Assembly: GCA_001244265.2 (NCBI GenBank)
Contig: CDLV01000005.1
Span: forward strand, 558,001-622,000
Reading direction: 5' to 3'
DNA from: Microbotryum violaceum
Taxonomy: Eukaryota
Length of the DNA: 64,000 bases
The position numbers and the translations under genes were made by a program. Shown piece by piece: positions 3,297 to 48,939 of this stretch (the first letter of the stretch is position 1; each line of letters starts with the position of its first letter). The notes beneath the pieces were generated by a model. The model was not told the DNA's origin. It made no database searches and worked only from the letters and a program-made list of their open reading frames with translations.

Positions 3297-5996
3297 TTAG
3301 ACGACACCTTCCCTCATCCTGCCGTGCCCTTGGCTCGTGGTGAATCGACTGCGAAAGAAGAACGCAGCCATGACGATCAGAACCCACCGAACAATATGCG
3401 ACTCCTGGGAAGGGAGAGATCACTCACTGAAAGCAAGCATCGAATTTCTGAATTTCCTCGGCCATGGTCTCGAGCACGTCGATGCTGTCCTTGAGGTGGG
3501 TCGCCAACATCCTTCGACGCCCGTCCGAGACGCGTGAATCCATGGCTCGATATTGCTCCGATAACTCGATGTACAATCTGAAGGGCGCGAAAGAATTGGC
3601 AAGATAAGATGTCTGAATCGATGAAACGAGCTTTTGGAGAAACGCTTACTGTTTCTGCACCGCGAACGCCTGTTCCATTTTTTCCAACGTAGACCTCAAT
3701 TCCAGCTTGTGGTCGACCGCCGGCGCTGCTGCAGGAGCAGCATTTTGCACGTTCGGACCCGCACCTCCCAAGTCCTTCTCATTCGCATTCCCTCCAACAT
3801 CCAGATTCCCACGCCTCCTCGGTCCCTGTGCCTTCTTCTTCTTCAGCCCGTTCCCACAGAGCTTGCAAATGTTCTTCCTCCTCTTGGACGGGTCTTGCAT
3901 CGACATGGATTCGAATAAGGCTTCGGCGCGGCGGAAGTCGGGTTCGAGCATCGGGGAGGAAGCAGCGGTGGAAGCGGAATCGTTGGCGGCGATTGAGGAA
4001 TCCGCTGTAGAAGCGTAGGACTCGTCGTATGCTGCTTCGTTGTGCGTGGGTTGGGGAGCTGCGCACGCGCGCACAGGAGCTGCGTTGGGGGCCGGGGCAG
4101 AAGCGGGTGCGGCACGTGCATGAACGGGTTGACGTGGGGGCGCCGTCGCGGGTCGGATGATGGGTTGCGGTGGTGGGATCGTCGTCGGTTCAGCGGCCCA
4201 ACGATGCGTCGTCCTCTGAGCACGAGGAGTACGATCCGGATCGACATTGGCCGTGGCCGCCATTTGACCCGGCGGTGGCGTAGATCCTCCAGTCCTCAAA
4301 TGATGTCCCTCCATCTCTCTCTTCCGACTCATTTCCTCCCGTTCCCACTGTTCCTTTACCAGCTTGTCGTGCAACAACTCTTCTACGGCATTCTTGACCA
4401 CGTTCGTCTCGGTCAACATCGTCTTGAGCCTTTCATTCAACTCGCTCACGCGTTGTCGATCATGCTCATTGACACGGGGAAGAGCACGAAGTTGAGCGAT
4501 CGCGATCTCATGAGAAGCGACTTGGCGTTCGAGTTGGGTCAAACGGGCTCGAAAGGTCGATTCCTGATCACGGCGCAGGAACATGTCCTCGACTTCTCGG
4601 CGAGTCAATCCGGGCGAACTTTGCGCTGGTGCTTGGACGAAAGCGGGCGAGGCGCGTCGAACTCCGACGGCGGGGGGTTGGTCTTTCTCCGCCAAGGCTC
4701 GCATGAGTTGAGCGTTCACCGCTTCGGCGTCTTGCAATCGAGAACGCAGATCGTCGATGGCGTTCGCGACGGCGGTAGCTGTAGGGTCCAGGATTCCAGT
4801 TTCGACGGCAAGATCAGTCGCTGGACACTCGTAAACTGCAAGGCTAGCCAAGCTGACGTTCTCTTACCTTCACTTCCGACAGCTTGAGCAGAGTTTGGCC
4901 TTCTGGGAACAGGAGCAGCCATATGCTGATTCCTCGACCTAGCCGGGCTCGTCAGACCATCAGTCAGACCCGTCACATCAGGCAAGCGATGCGATGGCTC
5001 GCCAAAGTGAGGCGTCGAAGAAGGAACTCTCGAGCGATTGCTGTAGGTCGGACCCATCTTGGGCGAGAAGGAATGGATCGCACTGGCTCGAGATGCGGCG
5101 TTGTTGATATTGGAAGGCGACCGCAACGGGAAAGTCTTGGACGCAGCGGGCATGAAGGAGGAAGAAGGCCCAGCAGCGGTGACAGGGGGTCGATTCTCAT
5201 CGGTCGGAGGAGGGCGTGCCGCGGCAGCCGCTGGAGCGAAAGGAGGTGAAGCAGCAGGTGACCTCTGCATGCCCGTGAAGGTGAGATCCTCCTGGTCAAG
5301 TGCGCGGGCCGCTGCGCGGATGGCAGACCCGGTTGGCATTGCAGAATGAGCCGCTGCTGAGCTGGCTCGATTCCCTGCCAGTCCGATCCTGAGCGAGAAA
5401 TCGTCGCCGATGGTAGGATCGGACGACTCGCCGTTGTCTTCTGCGCCGGAAGATTCGTCCTCAATCCTCGCTCGCAACCCCTGGTGCTGTTGGTGGTGAC
5501 GTTGACGAGGCAAAGTCGACGTTTGCTGTCGGAGACCGCCACGGGCTTGCTCGAGATCATCCGAGAGATCACCATAGCCGATCGAATCCCCCGATGAGGA
5601 TGCACCAGATCGGAGACCACCAGCCTGACGGTTGAGCTCGCCCATACCGAGCCTGATTTCGTTCTCGAGGTCGAGACGTTCACGCTCGGTGTTGTCGGTG
5701 AGGATGCCGCCCTCTTCCTCGATCACACGAGGGACCGAGGCGTAGGCCGGACTGGACGAAGGGGGCGGCGCAGCGGCGAATCGACCGTTGAGGTTTCCGA
5801 AAGCGGTGCGGCTCACGGGTGGTTGGGCATGCTGGAATATGGCACGCTTGATCTCGGACGAGAGGTTGGAGCGGGACCTGGATGGCTTGAGGGAGGTGAT
5901 GAGGGTCGAGTGATGACCCGAGGAGGACGCCGGGGTGGGAGTGTCGAGCGGGTAGCGTTGTTGACGCATCTGCGACGGCGTATGAGCGACCGACAT
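3297..5996 (-). CDS. Cep57-like centrosome/SPB microtubule-binding coiled-coil protein (spliced)
   Basis: ORFs 4716-6005 and 3646-4851 joined by a GT-AG intron. Contains an LPDVTGLT motif, a coiled coil, and C-terminal LEKMEQAFAVQKQ...ELSEQYRAMDSRVSDGRRRMLATHLKDSIDVLE resembling the fungal Cep57 MT-binding domain. Confidence 0.7.
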
Positions 5997-13303: not shown

Positions 13304-16300
13304 TCACTAATGCGACAAGGAGAGGAAGGGTCAGATCTAACATCCACATTAATTTGTACAGAGAGTACACTTACATCCAACGTGATGCGCATGTCGGCGA
13401 GTGGAATCGGCTCAAAGTTGTTGATGTCGATACCTCGCGACTGCAGCTCGGCCTCACAGTGCGGTGGCACGAGTCGGTGGATCAGATCCGGTCGAATCGA
13501 CAGCTCCTCGCGTGTAAAGTTGAACAAGGGCGGCATGTCTTTTCCCGTGGCCATCTTGCAGTCGGGCTGTCTCAGATCGTCAAAGAAGGGGTGGCACATG
13601 GCCTCGACCGCGGTCAAACGCGCCGAAGGGGTATATTCGAGCAACTTCGAGATGAGGTCGATCGCTTCAGGCGGGGTGCGGGGTCGGAACACCTTCACGA
13701 ACGGGTGCGGCTTGATCTGAGGGAACTTGTGTTCCATGTAGTTCGGGTTCATCGTCTTGATCTGCTCACGGCTCGGTGTGCCGAGCACTTTGATGATTTC
13801 AACCAATTGATCAATGCTGTGATTGAGGGTAGGGTTCATCAGTTAGTGGTCATTGTAAAAGCAGATGAGTCATTGAGATCAGAACGTACCCCGATTCTCC
13901 TGGGAACAAAGGCTGGCCCAGCATCAACTCGGCCATAACGCAACCCGAAGACCACACATCTGCACGCCAAGTCGACAGATGGGTCAGTCCGAGAGATGTC
14001 CGAGAGACGGCACTCAACGCTCCGAGGAATCTGATGACTAACCAATGTTGGTGGTGTAGTTCGTTGCGCCGAAAATGAGCTCGGGTGCTCGGTAGTACCG
14101 CGAACAAATGTAAGACACGTTGGGCTCGCCCTCGATCAGGATCTTTGCCGAGCCAAAGTCGCACAGCTTGAGTACACCCGTCGGCGGGTTCAACAGCAGA
14201 TTTTGAGGTTTGATGTCGCGGTGGCAGATGCCCACCGAATGGATGTACGCGAGTGACCGCAAGAGTTGGTACATGTACAGCTTGATGTAATGCATCGGCA
14301 TCGTTTGCTTCAGCTTGGCGTAGTGACGCGAAGCGCGGTAGACGGTCTCGGGGACGTATTCGAGCACGAGGTTCAAGTAGACTTCATCCTTCTTTGGCTG
14401 TGTAGAGCAAGCAAAGGTGACATATCCATTTAGCGCCCAAACAGTGACGGCCGTGTCTTGGTGGCCCCGTCAGACACTAGTACACACCTTGTCGCCATTC
14501 GAGTAGAAAAAGGCACGCAGGTCAACAACGTTCGGGTGTTTGACCAGTCTCATAATTTGCAACTCTCGGTTCTGTGTAGCAGCAAGCGTTTCGTCAGTAT
14601 CGGCTTTCGGAAGTCGGTTTTATAAGATTACGCTCGAAAGTGGTTGTGGGTTCGAGCCCTCTCGGAGCCCCACGTGGTGCCCGTCCGTCGACGCGCTCAT
14701 GTGACCCTCCGCCCCTCGCCACGGGATTGCCGCGCGTGACTTGCGCGCCCGGGCGAGATCCCGCATTGGCAATGGGGGACATCGCGCCCAGCCAAATGCC
14801 GGCTCGCGTAACATGTCTTGGCACAGGGGCATGCAACTCGGAAAACTCTGTTCGAAGTGACGACAGGAAAACTGACCTTGAACCGCTTGTCCTGCAACAC
14901 CTTCTTGATGGCAACATCATCGTCGCCGCCGTCGCCCTCTAGCGAGCCGTTGACGAGTTTCGCCTGAAAGACAACGCCGAACGAGCCATTGCCGACAACC
15001 TTGCAGTTGGTGTAGCTCAGCTCGCACTGTTCACCCGTCTTGCCGTTCGAAGCAATGACTTTGACGACCTTTTGTGAGTCGTCGGCTGTTGGTTTCGGAT
15101 ACAAAGATGTAGCATCGTCGTCATCGACATCGTCGTTATCGTCGTCGTCGTTGTCGAACGTGGCCGCATAACGCAGAAGCGCACCGTCGTGAGCGGAGAA
15201 GTCGTAACATGCGTCATCGGGCGAGGTTCCACCGGACGAGGAAGAGTGTCGTCGTCGTACGGCATCAAGAAGGGAAGACGCCGACGTCGATGTTGAAGAT
15301 GCCGCGGAGAAGCAACATGGTGTGGGCAGCACAACGTCGCGGTCGACGGGAATCGGAGTCGCCGGAGCGGTTTCGAGCCGAGCAAGCGCAATCGAGTCGA
15401 GCGAGGGCAAGGGTGCCGATGGCGGATCGAGTGATATCCGAGACGGACACGACGCCGACGACGAAGGATTGAGGTTGAGGGGGTAGTCGATGAGGGGAGG
15501 GAGGAGAGGATAGAACATGGTCAGCTACACTCGAATCACTCGCAAGTGGGATCAGAGCATGGCTGGACAGCTATAGCGAACAACCGCACGAGTGCAGTGG
15601 GGGCCAGACGGGAGGCAAGCCAGTGCCGACGGGATCGTCGACCCCAGCCCGCCAGTTCCAGCCAGCGCCAGGCACACACGCGTGCTGGCCCCGGCGCAAA
15701 TAGACGGCGGACGGCTGGGGCAGCATCAGCATGCAAGCCCCCGTCGGGAGCGCGTCACCGCGCCAAAAATCCTGTGTCTTCGGAGATGATGCGTGTCGCT
15801 CGAGCCACCCCAGACCATCACAACCGTCGAACAAAAAGGTGGCCCATGACTAGCCTGTATGACGACGAGCCTGCTGACAGACTGAACCCGTACGGCGGGC
15901 GGCTGAGAAGAGAAGAGAGTACACGCGCGCAGGGGCAACCAGCGTCGGGAGTTTCCGAATGCGAGATCGGCAGCAGTGCAGCGAAGATGAGATCTCATCG
16001 TCATACAGATGATGGCCATCGTCACCGCATAGCAGCTCGTGTCACTGTACCCTCGACGGCCCACTAGAGAACGCGCGAGGCCAGTGTGCTCCCCACATCA
16101 GCCGCCCTGCGCCAACAGCCTTTGTCGCGGACCACCTGACCTGCACTCGAGGCGCGCATGCGTATACGCGCCCAAACACCGAGCTAACCTCTCCCGAAGC
16201 GCGAATCCGCCCCCACATGCGAACGCGGCTGCTCATCACAACATCGTAGAGTACTCGACGATGGGCCCGTTTGGAGATTCGCTCCGCCGAGTGAGGCTGG

Positions 16301-16576
16301 AGGTAGGCGGCGGTCGACCATCTCGACAGCGAATGGAGCGGGCGGAAGAGGCAACAGCCATCACGCCGGGCTTGGGATAGCTGCTACGCCTCGGCATGCG
16401 AATGCCAGCCCCTCCTACTCGCTACCTCGCATATTCGATCTCCACCGTTTCCCATGTTGCGCTGGGCCCGGAAACCGAATCGAGTCGAGTCGTCGAGCGG
16501 TGGACGGAGAGAGGATAGAGGAAAAGGAGGAGCAGCTGAGCCGAGACAACTCACGTGAGATGCGAACGCCGTTCAT
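13304..16576 (-). CDS. GSK3: Glycogen synthase kinase 3, canonical copy (Rim11/Gsk3 family)
   Basis: Exon 1 MNGVRIS (16576-16555) splices in phase 1 to [10 protein letters not shown]. Contains [27 protein letters not shown] and [14 protein letters not shown]; terminal TGA at 13306-13304 follows the last intron. Confidence 0.95.
15086..16554 (-). other. 1,469-nt first intron of GSK3 with candidate distal branch point (GCTGAC, 15525-15520)
   Basis: GTGAGT donor at 16554, CAG acceptor at 15086, phases compatible; no AG on the transcribed strand from 15524 to 15088. Confidence 0.8.
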
Positions 16577-17719
16577 TATGTGAAAAGTCGGTGAATCCCG
16601 TCTAGCCCGACAAGGTTTGCGATGCTAAGGGTGTCCAACTTCTGTTGGAGGATGAAGCTCGAAGTGGGTGTCAGCCGAGGCTGCGCTTGGGCTCGGGTTT
16701 GGGCCTTTGGGCTTTGGGGCTGGCACACACGCGCGCGCGCTCTCTCGGTCGTCTGAGGGCTCCGTCTCAGCTGACCTCGACCTCCACGCCAGCAGCCACA
16801 GGCCAGCCATAGCACTGCAGCCCATTGCCAGGGCCAGCGGAGCCGACCGCCAACCGTCAGCTATTTGACGACCAGCGTGAACCCCACTCTGTAGCGTAGC
16901 CGTACTTGCTGGTGCCGCGGCGAATTGGTGTGCGCGTCCCAAGCTCGAGGAGGTGGACAACATACAGATGGTTTCGTAAAGAGGAAAGAGAAAGGAGCTC
17001 GATTCCCGGCGAACGGCGGCGAGAGGGAACAAGGGCCCGTCGAGTACAGCTGGCGGCAGTGGGAGGGGTGGTGGGCTGCACGGCACCGGCGGGGTTACGC
17101 TGGGGCAATGTGAGGGCTGGGTTTCGTGCACTGTTACGTAGCAGGGTCGGTTCGTCCAAACAGGGAAAATAAAACACGGTTCAAGTCTGGCTAGCAGACG
17201 AGGATTCGGAGGGCGAGCGTGAGGTGTCGAGGAAAGAGCGGCACGCAAGAGTTGGCAGTGCCTGGCCTGTGTGGACCCCCCGATCTTTACGTCTGGACCT
17301 GGACCTTTTTCTCGACGGCTGCTCACCTGATCTGTGCCGCCGTCGTCCCGTTTTCCGGTCCAGAACCACTGGTATGATCCCACCCATGTCCATGAACGAC
17401 ATGTGAGATCCTTTCAGTCCGCTTCTTTGAAATAAATAAAAAGTACGCTCAACTTTCATTTTCTGTCGAGCCGAACAAAATTGATTGACGACCCCACTTG
17501 CTGGCAGCGTCAGCGGCAGCATGGCAGCAGGTGATCGAACCGACGTGGGCGACTCGGTTCAAGGCATCAGCATATTTCTTGAAAGCGTCTACACCAGACT
17601 ACAGCAGAAGAAAACTCAAGCTGACCGACCTGATCCCGAGCGATCCAGCGATATGTTTTTTCCCCGGTTCATGCTTCTGTACTGTTGAAGGTGTTAGTAG
17701 ACCTTGCACTGATATCAGG

Positions 17720-46389: not shown

Positions 46390-48939
46390 TTACGACTTGA
46401 TCTCATGCACGATCATCAAATTCGTGCTCGTGCCGTCCCAACCTCGATTCCCCGACGTGGTGATCATGTATCGTTCTAAAGGGTCGATCCCTTTCCGAAA
46501 GAACCGCGTGGGCAAACACCAGTAAGTCATCCACTTCAAAACCCTCGGGTTATAAAGCACACGAACGTACAAAGGTTCGAAACGACCCCCCCATAATGCC
46601 CCAACACAAGCCGACTCTTCACCTTCCCCTCCCCCCTTCCTCTCCCAAATCCCACATCCTCACATTATCGAAACTCGCCGTGATTAACTTCCTCCCCGAT
46701 GTCCCCAAAGCCTTGATAGCCGTGACAGGTCCTGAAGCGAGGGGTAAACGAAGAGTTTGGAGAGTTGGAGAACGCGGAGAACATTGGCGTAGATCGTAAA
46801 TGTCTACTAGGGGGTCGTGGCGTCCGACGTAGATTTGGTTCCCGTCGGGGGACCAGGTTGCCTAAAGGTTTCGGAAATACAGCAAGTCAGTACTGTGCAC
46901 TCGCCTCATATGAACCCCGACCGACTCACCGAAGCGCACCACATCCCATACCTCCCACTACTCGGCAACCTCACCACATTCGCGTCCTTGACCCTCGTGT
47001 CCCAAATCAACACCTGGCCATCCAAACTGGTGGACATGAACACATCGTCACTCTTCTTGCCCCGCATGGACGATGAAGCATCAGGTTGTGTTCCCCAGAT
47101 GGGAATTGAGGTTGTCTTCTTGAGTTTAGGGACGAGCAAGGAGGATCCTGTGGATTTGGGCTTGATGGGGATGGTGATTTTGGTTGAAGAAGACGAGGAA
47201 GGATTCGTCGCTGACGTCGTATTGGCGTTACTGGATACGCCCAACAAAGCTTCTTCGTCGAAATCCTCCCCATCGGCATCGAGGTCGCCTTCAGCATCGA
47301 CGTCGTCCTTTTTGGCTGTCGCTTCCTCCTTCGCTTGCGTTGTCGTCGACGCCCTGTCCTCTTCTTCTTCCTCTCCATCGGTTGTGGGGGTCTCTTTCGT
47401 CCCATTACCATTCCCGTTCGTTTTCCTCTGATCACCATTCCCTGTTTTCCTCTTCTTCCTCTGCTTCTCCTCCTCCTCCTCCTCACTATCATCCACCTCC
47501 ATAGCCCCCTCATCCTCATCCTCATCCTCGTCCCCGTCCCCTCCCCCTCTCCCTCCCCCAGTCTCCACCGGTCTCGCCTGCACCGAACTAACCTGCGCAT
47601 CATGCCCCTGGCCGAACCTCCTCACCGCCTTGCCCAAATCCATATCCCATTCCAAAACTTGCCCATCCCATCCCCCACTCCATAACCTCCTCTCGTCCTG
47701 GGTCAGATTAAGGACGGAGATCGGGGAAGAAGGGGAGTGACCTAGTGTTGTAGAGGAGGTGGAAGAGGGGAACACGTGCCGTATCTGCCCTTGATCATGT
47801 CGGATCGTGAAGAGGTTGATCGTACCGAACTGAAAACCAACTCCCCTCCCTCAAAAACACGTCAGCATCGACACCACGAGCTCGGAGAAGAACCTTTCCC
47901 CCCCCTCCCCCCGGCTCCCCCTCCCCAGAAAAATCCAACTCACCGCCGTGCCCGAAAGGCCCCATAGATCCTCTTTGTTGACTTGCAAACTATACACGAC
48001 CGAAGATTTGTTCCATGCTTTACTTTTGGGACCGAATTCGATTTGTCTCGATTGTCCGCCTTGAGTTCGACTGGACCAGAGACGGTCTTGGATCCAATTC
48101 GGTGGGGATGCTGGATCGGGTGCTGAGGAGGTGGAGGGATTCGGTGGTACGGGTGGAGGTGCTATGGAGGAAGAGGAGGAGGAGGAAAGAGAAGGAGGTG
48201 CTTCGTTTTCCCAATAGCCTCTGAGGACGGGATACCTCCCCATCGTATTCAACAGCGGTGTATGCGCCGCGCCGAAAGCCACTCCCATTCCATCCACGGA
48301 AGAGCCAAGCTCAACTCCCAGCGTGGTATGCAACACCGACGAAGACGCATGAGCCGGAGACGAGACTGACGAAGAAGAGGTATAGTTGGGACCTAGATGG
48401 GCCGATTCGGAAGGGTTCAACGAAGCGGGGAGGGAATAGCGTCGGATGTAGCCGTCGGCTGAACCGGTGTAGAGATGCGAACAATCGAGCGAGGACGAGA
48501 AGGCGTGAATGGGCGTAGAGTGAGGGACGTAGAGCAGGCTTTCGATCGCGTAGGATTGGTTGTCGGAAGTCGAGGGGGCGGTATAGTGTCGTCGGCGTTT
48601 GTGGATCTGCTCGAGGTAGGCAGAGTTCGGAGCGCCGAGGTCGATCGGGGTCGGTTCGCGAGGCGGTGGTGGTGGAGGGGGTGGTGTAGGCGTTGGTGCG
48701 ATGACTGTCGGCGCTATTCCTTCTCCACCTTTTTCGTTCGCTCCGGAACCCATCTTGACATGCTCACTGTCCACATCGATCGGTGCCGAGCCTTCGGGCC
48801 CGGCGCTCGTCGTCGGCTTGTCGTCGAGAGGCAGCACCGGCTTGTCCCCGTCAACTTGCTCGGCTACTTCAGTCGTGTTGTTGACGTTGATCGGCGTGGA
48901 CAGGTTGGATCCATTTTGTGGTGTCGTATCCACGGCCAT
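46390..48939 (-). CDS. SPT8: SAGA complex WD40 subunit Spt8
   Basis: LYTGSADGYIRRY, GYWENE, VYSLQV..LWGLSGT, GTINLFTIRHDQG, WSGGWDG, WCAS and YMITTSGNRGWDGTST. Confidence 0.85.

What the first reader, a model, noticed from the sequence alone, without database searches (positions are those of the whole stretch)
15086..15525. 437-nt AG-free zone starting exactly at a branch-point consensus: extreme distal branch point in GSK3 intron 1
Seen: on the transcribed (-) strand there is no AG from 15524 to 15088. The zone starts at GCTGAC (15525-15520), is followed by a long pyrimidine tract, and ends at the CAG acceptor (15086) that joins exon 1 in frame. Surrounding DNA has AG roughly every 15-20 nt, so chance is very unlikely. 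Established: AG-exclusion zones mark distal branch points in mammals, whereas fungal branch-to-acceptor distances are usually tens of nt or less. Inference: the spliceosome branches ~435 nt upstream and scans to the first AG, an unusual and possibly regulated splicing mode for a fungal kinase gene.
Basis: partly seen in the sequence, partly recalled or inferred. Interest (0 to 1): 0.85.

Follow-up and report, generated by a model that had tools for sequence, protein, structure and literature searches.

The report
AG-free coding exon inside GSK3 intron
A 437-base stretch with no AG in a fungal GSK3 kinase gene is removed as the tail of intron 1, apparently from a branch point about 435 bases upstream, yet it also encodes a conserved alternative start of the protein, so the splicing rule seems to have shaped the protein's make-up.

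Summary
On the minus strand there is no AG from 15524 to 15088. About 16 are expected from base composition, and this is the longest run lacking any dinucleotide in the window.

The intron is real. RNA-type contigs of a sister species join 16555 to 15085 (GT..AG, 1469 nt skipped).

Five further Microbotryomycetes lineages from metagenome contigs share the layout. Each has a conserved mini-exon and donor, then an intron whose last 141-438 nt hold no AG. Each zone opens just 5' of a CTGAC or CTGAT, which is the only CTRAY in the intron in 4 of 6 lineages. A lineage without the zone has CTGAC 24 nt from its acceptor.

An ORF starting at ATG 15518 runs in frame into exon 2. It encodes the N-terminal extension (MxxLLPPLDxPLxLNP...) with which 12 of 14 fetched annotated GSK3 proteins of this class begin. 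Between two lineages, substitutions fall 7/4/32 by codon position and all indels are multiples of 3.

AG avoidance also acts on synonymous choices (P about 9e-7 given the protein; 13 of 13 K/E/Q codons end in A).

Best reading: a dual-use exon/intron segment with a distal branch point. The branch site, and the transcript and protein of the long form, are not shown.

The parts
16555..16576 (-). Exon 1a coding part (mini-exon): ATG AAC GGC GTT CGC ATC TCA C = MNGVRIS plus 1 nt
   Evidence: Sequence. Joint 15085/16555 in X5 contigs. MNGVRI(S) plus a GTGAGT/GTAAGT donor is conserved in L001, L002 and L013; ATGT|GTRAGT or GTACGT in L005, L007, L009 and L010.
16549..16554 (-). 5' splice site GTGAGT of intron 1
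15086..16554 (-). Intron 1 of the short-isoform mRNA, 1469 nt
   Evidence: X5 joint 'skips 1469, CT..AC' at depth 745. An unspliced contig, 15056-16584, has depth 37.6.
15520..15525 (-). GCTGAC, candidate distal branch site (branch A at 15521, 435 nt from the acceptor G)
   Evidence: It is the last CTRAC in the intron. The orthologous CTGAC/CTGAT sits 1-14 nt before the conserved ATG in 5 of 5 other lineages and is the only CTRAY of the intron in 4 of 6. The branch has not been mapped.
15088..15524 (-). AG-free zone, 437 nt
15516..15518 (-). ATG of the long-isoform ORF, preceded by an in-frame TAG at 15527-15525
   Evidence: The Met is conserved at the same place in relatives.
15459..15518 (-). 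Pyrimidine-rich tract (78% C+T) just 3' of the CTGAC. It encodes the conserved N-terminal motif [20 protein letters not shown].
   Evidence: 73-83% pyrimidine in all six lineages. Motif seen.
15087..15518 (-). N-terminal-extension ORF (144 codons), contiguous and in frame with exon 2. Proposed alternative first coding exon (1b).
   Evidence: Stop-to-stop ORF 14697..15524. Of 8 isolated differences to the sister species, 7 are synonymous third-position changes. In L007 vs L009, substitutions fall 7/4/32 by codon position and gaps are 3, 6 and 6 nt. 12 of 14 fetched annotated homologues start with this motif.
15086..15087 (-). 3' splice site AG (CAG|CC), formed by codons ACA GCC of the long ORF
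   Evidence: joint. NNA|GCC GAC GA is conserved in L001, L002, L005-L011 and L013.
14877..15085 (-). Exon 2, start of the kinase domain (…[38 protein letters not shown]…VLQDKRFK)
13304..14876 (-). Rest of the GSK3 gene: introns 14572-14876, 14398-14487, 13960-14042, 13817-13889 and 13307-13374, the exons between them, and stop TGA at 13306-13304
   Evidence: Joints. Branch motifs.

Best explanation
The zone is a dual-use segment of the GSK3 gene of a Microbotryum-type fungus (class Microbotryomycetes).

(1) In the main mRNA, a 22-nt mini-exon coding part (MNGVRIS) is spliced from donor 16554 to acceptor 15086. The zone is then the last 437 nt of that 1469-nt intron. The spliceosome most likely branches at the CTGAC at the zone's 5' edge (A at 15521), which is followed directly by a pyrimidine tract, and uses the first AG downstream. 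That is the arrangement of mammalian distant-branch-point exons with an AG exclusion zone.

(2) The same DNA is an ORF (ATG 15518) that runs in frame into exon 2. It encodes a 144-residue N-terminal extension of GSK3 that is conserved across the class and under purifying selection. It is presumably translated from transcripts that start inside intron 1.

Any AG in this ORF would become a premature 3' splice site in the main transcript. Selection has therefore removed AG at two levels. At the amino-acid level, K, E and Q are almost absent, with D far above E and R above K. At the synonymous level, Ser is only TCN, Arg is only CGN, and K/E/Q use only AAA/GAA/CAA.

Shown: the AG-free zone, the splice junction (in a sister species), conservation of the layout in 6 lineages, and coding-type evolution of the ORF. 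Inferred: the branch site, first-AG selection, a separate transcript, and translation of the long form.
For: - **Zone statistics:** 0 AG against about 15.7 expected. It is the longest dinucleotide-free run in the window.
- **Junction:** 15085/16555 with GT..AG ends at depth 745 in X5. Spliced joints are seen at 6 of 6 introns of the gene in that run.
- **Branch motifs in the same gene:** 4 of 5 other introns have CTRAY 22-26 nt from the acceptor. Intron 1 has none nearer than TTGAT (179) and CTGAC (435).
- **Relatives:** of 15 metagenome loci, 10 carry the architecture (L001, L002, L005-L011, L013). Where the contig reaches far enough, the AG-free run is 141, 141, 376, 376, 438, 433, 438 and 161 nt; it is at least 279/280 nt to the contig start in L008/L011.
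- **AG density and branch motif in relatives:** the upstream part of the same introns has 4.8-8.7 AG per 100 nt. Each zone opens 1-14 nt 5' of a CTGAC/CTGAT that lies 1-14 nt before the ATG. That motif is the only CTRAY in the whole intron in L001, L005, L007 and L013.
- **Mini-exon:** it is conserved together with its donor.
- **Natural control:** L003/L004 lack the ORF, have CTGAC 24 nt before the acceptor, and have normal AG density.
- **Coding, comparative:** L007 vs L009 extension is 86.4% identical, with gaps of 3, 6 and 6 nt and substitutions 7/4/32 by codon position. The upstream intron is 66.7% identical with 18 gaps of mixed length. Exon 2 shows 1/0/12.
- **Coding, sister species:** in window vs X5, 7 of 8 isolated differences in 15088-15383 are synonymous third-position changes. 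None creates an AG or a stop, and no indel is listed in the zone.
- **Coding, annotation:** 12 of 14 annotated GSK3 proteins fetched start with the motif.
- **Synonymous AG avoidance:** P(no AG | protein, window codon usage) = 8.9e-7. 13 of 13 K/E/Q codons in the six zones end in A.
- **Precedent:** distant branch points 100-400 nt upstream, with an adjacent pyrimidine tract and an AG exclusion zone (PMC1431707, passages read).
Against: - No branch point is mapped. Only contigs could be laid, so there are no lariat reads.
- The junction was seen in one run of a sister species (90-96% alike), not in the window's own organism. Its contigs (X1, X2) do not bridge intron 1.
- The start of the zone coincides with both the CTGAC and the ATG. 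'Zone starts at the branch site' and 'zone equals the ORF' therefore cannot be told apart by position.
- 4-of-5 matches to the branch consensus exist nearer the acceptor in the window (ATAAC at 50, ATGAC at 35).
- Stops are rare in all three frames of these pyrimidine-rich zones, so an open frame alone is weak evidence.
- No transcript start, peptide or ribosome data exist for the long form.
- The upstream intron is not depleted of ATG (19 seen, 11 expected in the window). Retained-intron mRNA would therefore translate the ORF poorly, and a separate start site has to be assumed.
- 435 nt is far beyond what S. cerevisiae tolerates without a bridging structure (PMC3239191, passages read), and no such structure was supported here.
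Confidence: 0.7

Rival explanations
1. Coding extension only. The zone is simply the N-terminal coding region. AG is absent because of a peculiar residue make-up or some unknown constraint on the mRNA or protein. Intron 1 uses a non-consensus branch site close to 15086.
For: The ORF evolves as coding sequence and is annotated as protein in relatives. Near-consensus ATAAC and ATGAC lie 50 and 35 nt from the window's acceptor. The zone boundary coincides with the ATG as well as with the CTGAC.
Against: Given the protein and the window's codon usage, P(no AG) = 8.9e-7. All 23 Ser and 7 Arg codons avoid AGN, and 13 of 13 K/E/Q codons in six lineages end in A. L005, L007 and L009 have not even a relaxed branch motif in the last 80 nt. 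A proximal branch site would give no reason to purge AG 140-440 nt upstream. I know of no non-splicing cause of AG-specific avoidance that spares GA, AA and GG.
Confidence: 0.12
2. Intron only. There is a distal branch point and an AG exclusion zone, but the ORF is never translated. Its conservation reflects RNA-level needs (pyrimidine tract, binding sites for splicing regulators).
For: The conserved 'peptide motif' is also a 73-83% pyrimidine tract next to the branch motif. Stops are rare in all frames of such sequence. The spliced form dominates in X5, 745 against 37.6. There is no direct evidence of the protein.
Against: Third-position bias of 7/4/32 and gaps only in multiples of 3 run across the whole 420-nt extension, not only the tract, whereas the upstream intron shows mixed gaps. 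Synonymous differences in 15126-15300 lie far from the tract. An in-frame Met is conserved 7-9 codons before the motif in the window, P0002-P0005, P0013, P0020, P0023 and 12 annotated proteins.
Confidence: 0.1
3. A DNA-level or chance feature unrelated to splicing, for example a CT-free + strand arising from repeat expansion ((GAC)n, (TCG)n) or strand-biased mutation.
For: The zone holds short triplet runs, and GC and AT skews are raised at 15200-15600.
Against: The same AG-free property recurs in five other lineages with unrelated zone sequence and length. It ends exactly at the shared acceptor each time. The upstream intron and the exons have normal AG density.
Confidence: 0.03

Closest known systems
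Mammalian distant-branch-point exons with AG dinucleotide exclusion zones (Gooding et al. 2006, Genome Biol 7:R1, PMC1431707; passages read)
   Same: The branch motif and an adjacent pyrimidine tract lie 100-400+ nt upstream of the acceptor. There is no AG in between and no good branch motif near the acceptor. The zone is conserved in orthologues. The size is similar (nPTB AGEZ 438; PTB exon 11, 381). There is a link to alternative mRNA forms.
   Different: This case is in a basidiomycete fungus whose other introns have branch sites at 22-26 nt. The excluded zone is itself a conserved protein-coding ORF in frame with the downstream exon, so the rule constrains residue and codon choice. I found no case of that kind in the passages read or in four literature searches. 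The branch is not mapped here.
Distant-branch-point introns of Saccharomycotina yeasts (COF1, UBC13; Gahura et al. 2011, NAR 39:9759, PMC3239191; passages read)
   Same: These are fungal introns with long branch-to-acceptor distances (up to 166, 471 and 185 nt in Saccharomyces, C. glabrata and K. lactis, according to that paper).
   Different: Those introns depend on a stem that shortens the distance and hides silent AGs. Here there are no AGs to hide, and folding gave no support for a bridging structure (z = -0.77; graph distance no shorter than in shuffles).
Alternative first exons and N-terminal isoforms of GSK3 (mammalian GSK3 alpha/beta N-terminal regulatory segments; recalled, not from any call)
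   Same: A kinase core preceded by a variable, disordered N-terminal segment. The window's extension holds RRRHSS (15257-15240) and Sporidiobolales relatives hold RRPRSRSRS. Both resemble basophilic-kinase sites like the inhibitory N-terminal serine of animal GSK3.
   Different: There is no sequence homology to the animal N-termini, and no Pfam family matches the extension. The regulatory role is speculation.

Membership tests
AG-exclusion-zone / distant-branch-point 3' splice sites | AG-free stretch of 100 nt or more directly upstream of a used 3' splice site | tested here: met
   437 nt. The acceptor is used in X5.
AG-exclusion-zone / distant-branch-point 3' splice sites | Consensus branch sequence at the 5' end of the zone with an adjacent pyrimidine tract | tested here: met
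   GCTGAC at 15525-15520. The next 60 nt are 78% pyrimidine. The same holds in 5 of 5 other lineages.
AG-exclusion-zone / distant-branch-point 3' splice sites | No good branch sequence near the 3' splice site | tested here: met
   No YTRAY lies within 179 nt of the acceptor in the window, only the 4-of-5 matches ATAAC (50) and ATGAC (35). L005, L007 and L009 have none, even relaxed, in the last 80 nt.
AG-exclusion-zone / distant-branch-point 3' splice sites | Zone conserved in orthologues despite sequence divergence | tested here: met
   141-438 nt AG-free in L001/2, L005/6, L007/10, L009 and L013. The control lineage L003/4 has a proximal branch motif and no zone.
AG-exclusion-zone / distant-branch-point 3' splice sites | Branch nucleotide mapped experimentally at the distal site | not testable with these tools
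   Only contigs could be laid, so there are no lariat reads.
Structure-dependent distant-branch-point introns of yeasts | Stable stem between branch site and acceptor that shortens the distance and masks silent AGs | tested here: not met
   z = -0.77, with 19 of 100 shuffles folding as well. The branch-to-acceptor graph distance is not shorter than in shuffles in 6 of 6 zones. There are no AGs to mask.
GSK3 family protein kinase | Kinase domain with close identity to annotated GSK3 proteins | tested here: met
   Exon 2 is 97% identical to a Microbotryum intermedium protein and 80-87% to Rhodotorula and Rhodosporidiobolus GSK3. Pkinase PF00069 scores E = 3e-60 on P0166. The spliced 394-aa product reads as full-length GSK3.
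Alternative first coding exon (N-terminal isoform) | ORF in frame with the downstream exon and evolving under purifying selection | tested here: met
Alternative first coding exon (N-terminal isoform) | Own transcript start and a detectable protein product | not testable with these tools
   Contigs cannot show transcript starts. No proteomic or ribosome data were on hand.

The most novel reading that the evidence does not exclude
A whole protein-coding exon (141-438 nt, depending on lineage) has been kept free of AG across the class Microbotryomycetes because it doubles as the spacer between a distal branch point and the 3' splice site of the upstream intron. The spliceosome's first-AG rule would then have shaped a protein segment: almost no Lys, Glu or Gln, and Ser/Arg restricted to four-fold codons. 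The choice between promoter use and splicing would switch GSK3 between a short form and a long form with a possibly regulatory N-terminus.
Probability: 0.6. Interest if true: 0.85.

Novelty: new variant of a known kind. Interest (0 to 1): 0.8.

Why it matters
This would be a clear natural case of first-AG-after-the-branch selection acting over hundreds of nucleotides in a fungus, conserved across a whole class.

It would also show a splicing rule dictating the amino-acid and codon content of a translated segment. It gives a directly testable system: one silent Ser codon change (TCG to AGC) is predicted to move the splice site.

It bears on genome annotation too. GSK3 models in these fungi disagree: some are long, some short, some fused. 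Both forms may be real.

GSK3 is a central signalling kinase, so two N-terminal isoforms could matter for its regulation.

Tried and rejected
- **Whole genome:** none is held for this window, so no genome-wide survey of AG-free zones or branch distances was possible.
- **The search of earlier findings:** No earlier findings were seen.
- **Sequencing runs:** no RNA holder is listed on record. All 'RNA?' labels are guesses. X5 is taken as cDNA only because its contigs carry GT..AG joints at 6 of 6 introns.
- **Own-organism runs:** X1 and X2 (99%+ alike) do not bridge intron 1. X2 record 10 stops at 15084. X9 is thin and covers intron and exon alike, so it is uninformative.
- **Truncated table:** the read laying difference table was cut (99 more rows not shown), so differences in 15384-15524 are unknown.
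- **Bridging RNA structure:** the minimum-free-energy fold pairs (TCG)n at 15464-15448 with (CGA)n at 15150-15128. The overall z-score is -0.77, and the branch-to-acceptor graph distance is not shorter than in shuffles for any of 6 zones. Not supported.
- **Open reading frame as evidence:** stops are rare in all three frames of the zones, so I dropped this as an argument on its own.
- **ATG depletion of the upstream intron,** which would allow translation from retained-intron mRNA: not found.
- **Pfam on the extension:** nothing above threshold (NOA36, E = 0.067).
- **Literature:** four searches found no paper on an AG exclusion zone or distal branch point in basidiomycetes, on an AG-free coding exon, or on GSK3 isoforms in Microbotryomycetes. 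PMC11913375 (passages read) gave no branch-distance figures. Supplements were not consulted.
- **Technical repeats:** timed out and was redone. Searches were rejected for term format and resent.
- **Bad comparison:** L001 vs L013 is too diverged, and its exon-2 stretch runs into another intron. I ignored it.
Full report
**1. The observation.**
Read on the minus strand, the AG at 15526/15525 is the last one before the AG at 15087/15086. The AG-free stretch is 437 nt. AG occurs on average every 16.2-16.5 nt in the window. The next-longest AG-free gaps are 210 and 164 nt.

The zone is C/T-rich (A 73, G 94, C 164, T 106), but composition does not explain the gap. In 20,000 mononucleotide shuffles the mean was 15.7 AG, the minimum was 5, and none had 0. 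The window's own P(G|A) gives 5.8e-11. GA (33), AA (11) and GG (11) are all present. No other dinucleotide has so long a free run anywhere in the window.

**2. The gene and the intron.**
The surrounding gene is a GSK3-family kinase. Exon 2 is 97% identical to a Microbotryum intermedium protein and 80-87% identical to GSK3 of Rhodotorula and Rhodosporidiobolus. The organism is therefore a Microbotryum-type member of the class Microbotryomycetes.

No run is on record as RNA. However, contigs of run X5, from a sister organism 90-96% alike, carry GT..AG joints at all six introns of the gene. Among them is 15085/16555, which skips 1469 nt at depth 745.

The spliced product is a 394-aa GSK3 beginning [17 protein letters not shown]. 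A second X5 contig covers the whole intron unspliced (15056-16584) at depth 37.6, while intron 2 has no cover at all. Intron-1-containing RNA is thus present at roughly a twentieth of the spliced level. Contig depths are rough.

Contigs of the window's own organism (X1, X2) show three of the other joints but do not bridge intron 1.

**3.
The frame containing ATG 15518-15516 is open from the TAG at 15527-15525 through the entire zone. It runs without interruption into exon 2 (stop-to-stop ORF 14697..15524; frames).

By itself this is weak evidence, because stops are rare in all three frames of such pyrimidine-rich, AG-free sequence. Three further lines of evidence show it is coding.

- **(a) Homologues start here.**
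  - Of 21 ORF fragments fetched from the 1.8-billion-protein search, 10 extend upstream of the exon. They carry the same motif near their start ([LF][IF]D[YF]PL.LNP[ST]...), mostly with a Met 7-9 residues before it.
  - Of 14 annotated full-length homologues fetched, 12 begin with M-x(6-8)-LPPLDxPLxLNP. These come from Rhodotorula, Rhodosporidiobolus, Sporobolomyces, Meredithblackwellia, Phenoliferia, Microbotryomycetes sp. and M. intermedium. The other two are fused gene models.
- **(b) Two Sporobolomyces-like metagenome loci (L007, L009).** The extension is 86.4% identical, has gaps of 3, 6 and 6 nt only, and has substitutions 7/4/32 by codon position. The upstream part of the same intron is 66.7% identical with 18 gaps of mixed length. 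Exon 2 shows 1/0/12.
- **(c) Window versus X5.** The 15 differences listed in 15088-15383 include 8 isolated ones. Seven of these are synonymous third-position changes (binomial P about 0.003, my arithmetic). No indel is listed in the zone, although many are listed just upstream. The difference table was truncated, so 15384-15524 is unknown.

**4. The AG-free property is conserved and is tied to a branch motif.**
A scan of metagenome contigs with a clade-specific peptide alignment gave 15 loci.

- **Shared acceptor and AG-free run.**
  - Ten loci share the acceptor NNA|GCC GAC GA, with an AG-free run upstream of 141 (L001, L002), 376 (L005, L006), 438 (L007, L010), 433 (L009) and 161 nt (L013).
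  - The run is at least 279/280 nt, reaching the contig start, in L008/L011.
  - These represent five lineages besides the window.
- **Upstream mini-exon.**
  - In all of them an upstream mini-exon with a donor is conserved.
  - It reads MNGVRI(S)|GTGAGT or GTAAGT in L001, L002 and L013.
  - It reads ATGT|GTGAGT or GTACGT in L005, L007, L009 and L010.
  - The introns are 500-808 nt.
- **AG density.** The upstream part of each intron has 4.8-8.7 AG per 100 nt, and the 3' part has none.
- **Branch motif at the zone's edge.**
  - Each zone opens a few nt 5' of a CTGAC (CTGAT in L013) that sits 1-14 nt before the conserved ATG.
  - Branch-A to acceptor distances are 435, 132, 372, 428, 420 and 148 nt.
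  - In L001, L005, L007 and L013 this is the only CTRAY in the entire intron.
- **Pyrimidine tract.** The first 60 nt after the ATG are 73-83% pyrimidine in all six. The layout is therefore branch motif, then pyrimidine tract, then AG-free spacer, then AG.
- **Other introns of the window's gene.** 4 of 5 have CTRAY 22-26 nt from the acceptor.
- **Natural control.** L003/L004 (83% identical in the exon) lack the ORF and the motif. They have CTGAC 24 nt before a TAG acceptor and normal AG density.

**5. AG avoidance acts inside the coding sequence.**
Given the window's extension protein and a codon table from 16 long ORFs plus the GSK3 coding sequence, the exact probability of no AG is 8.9e-7.

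The residue content is skewed in the direction expected:

| Residue | Zone | Background |
|---|---|---|
| E | 0.7% | 5.3% |
| K | 0.7% | 4.1% |
| Q | 0% | 3.3% |
| D | 14.6% | 5.1% |

All 23 Ser codons are TCN and all 7 Arg codons are CGN. Across the six zones, 13 of 13 K/E/Q codons are AAA, GAA or CAA.

**6. Mechanism proposed.**
In the main transcript the spliceosome pairs the donor at 16554 with the CTGAC at 15521 and uses the first AG downstream, at 15086. An AG anywhere in between would be taken instead, so it is selected against.

This matches the logic and layout of mammalian distant-branch-point exons. In those, branch sites lie 100-400 nt upstream with an adjacent pyrimidine tract and an AG exclusion zone. 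Inserted AGs are disruptive, and such exons tend to be alternatively spliced (PMC1431707, passages read).

It differs from the long branch-to-acceptor introns of budding yeasts. Those depend on a stem that shortens the distance and hides silent AGs (PMC3239191, passages read; distances up to 166, 471 and 185 nt are quoted there). Folding of the six zones gave no support for such a stem.

The long protein form most likely comes from transcripts that start inside intron 1 and so have no donor upstream. The upstream intron is not depleted of ATG, which argues against efficient translation from retained-intron RNA. Neither the branch site nor the long transcript or protein is shown.

**7. Caveats.**
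- The CTGAC and the ATG are adjacent, so the zone's 5' edge cannot say which of the two it tracks. The argument for the distal branch rests on a different point: with a proximal branch there would be no reason to purge AG hundreds of nt upstream.
- Near-consensus ATAAC and ATGAC lie 50 and 35 nt from the window's acceptor.
- The RNA evidence comes from one run of a sister species, and only as contigs.
- The conserved N-terminal 'peptide motif' may be conserved partly as a pyrimidine tract.

**8. Novelty and verdict.**
AG exclusion zones and distal branch points are known, as are long branch distances in some yeasts. Three things look new:
- a mammalian-type exclusion zone in a basidiomycete;
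- its conservation across a class;
- its complete overlap with a translated, selected ORF, so that a splicing rule shapes a protein.

Four literature searches found nothing like it. I rate it a new variant of a known kind, interest 0.8. Confidence is 0.7 in the dual-use model as a whole. It is higher for the coding half and for the intron as such, and lower for the exact branch site.

Noticed in passing
window 15240-15257 (-): The extension holds RRRHSS. Relatives of the Sporidiobolales hold RRPRSRSRS(F/L)R at a comparable place. From recall, these resemble basophilic-kinase sites like the inhibitory N-terminal serine of animal GSK3. The short extensions of L001 and L013 lack such a run.
   Followed up: no
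window 15448-15464 and 15128-15150 (-): A (TCG)n run coding Ser and a (CGA)n/(GAC)n run coding Asp are complementary. They form a helix of about 17 bp in both the minimum-free-energy and centroid folds, which would bring the CTGAC nearer the acceptor. The fold is not better than shuffles, and relatives show nothing similar.
   Followed up: partly
window 15088-15430 (-) compared with L001, L013: The Microbotryum lineage has roughly 290 nt (about 95 codons) more between the conserved NPSS..CPS motif and the acceptor than the lineages with 43-44-codon extensions. The extra part is still AG-free and shows synonymous-type differences to the sister species.
   Followed up: partly
P0151 (Microbotryum intermedium, 1013 aa): This annotated model starts at the same ATG and motif, then jumps from ...NPSSLA to PSDDSQR, which implies a predicted intron inside the zone. 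It is also fused to a downstream gene (PF12706). It is probably an annotation artefact. No such joint was listed.
   Followed up: no
P0158 (Rhodotorula toruloides, 666 aa): This model joins upstream exons ending in ...HHVQYM directly to ADESQKVVKV. It therefore uses the same acceptor with an upstream exon ending at a Met, consistent with the ATGT|GT mini-exon seen in L005.
   Followed up: no
window 13304-13374 (-): The last intron (13307-13374) sits immediately before the stop codon. The coding sequence ends ...RITLD, then the intron, then TGA at 13306-13304.
   Followed up: no
window 47261-47705 (+): A cluster of long dinucleotide-free runs on the + strand. AA-free for 324 nt (47261-47585), AG-free for 210 nt (47293-47503) and 145 nt (47560-47705), and the window's longest CG-free and GA-free runs also lie here. 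This is a strongly biased, low-complexity stretch that I did not examine.
   Followed up: no
window 4383-4775 (+): A TA-free run of 392 nt. TA is generally rare in the window (odds ratio 0.53), so this may be ordinary.
   Followed up: no
P0001 (Operophtera brumata 'Shaggy', 485 aa): The top-scoring hit of the representative search carries seven tandem copies of the GSK3 exon-2 segment. This looks like an assembly or annotation artefact in an insect genome.
   Followed up: no
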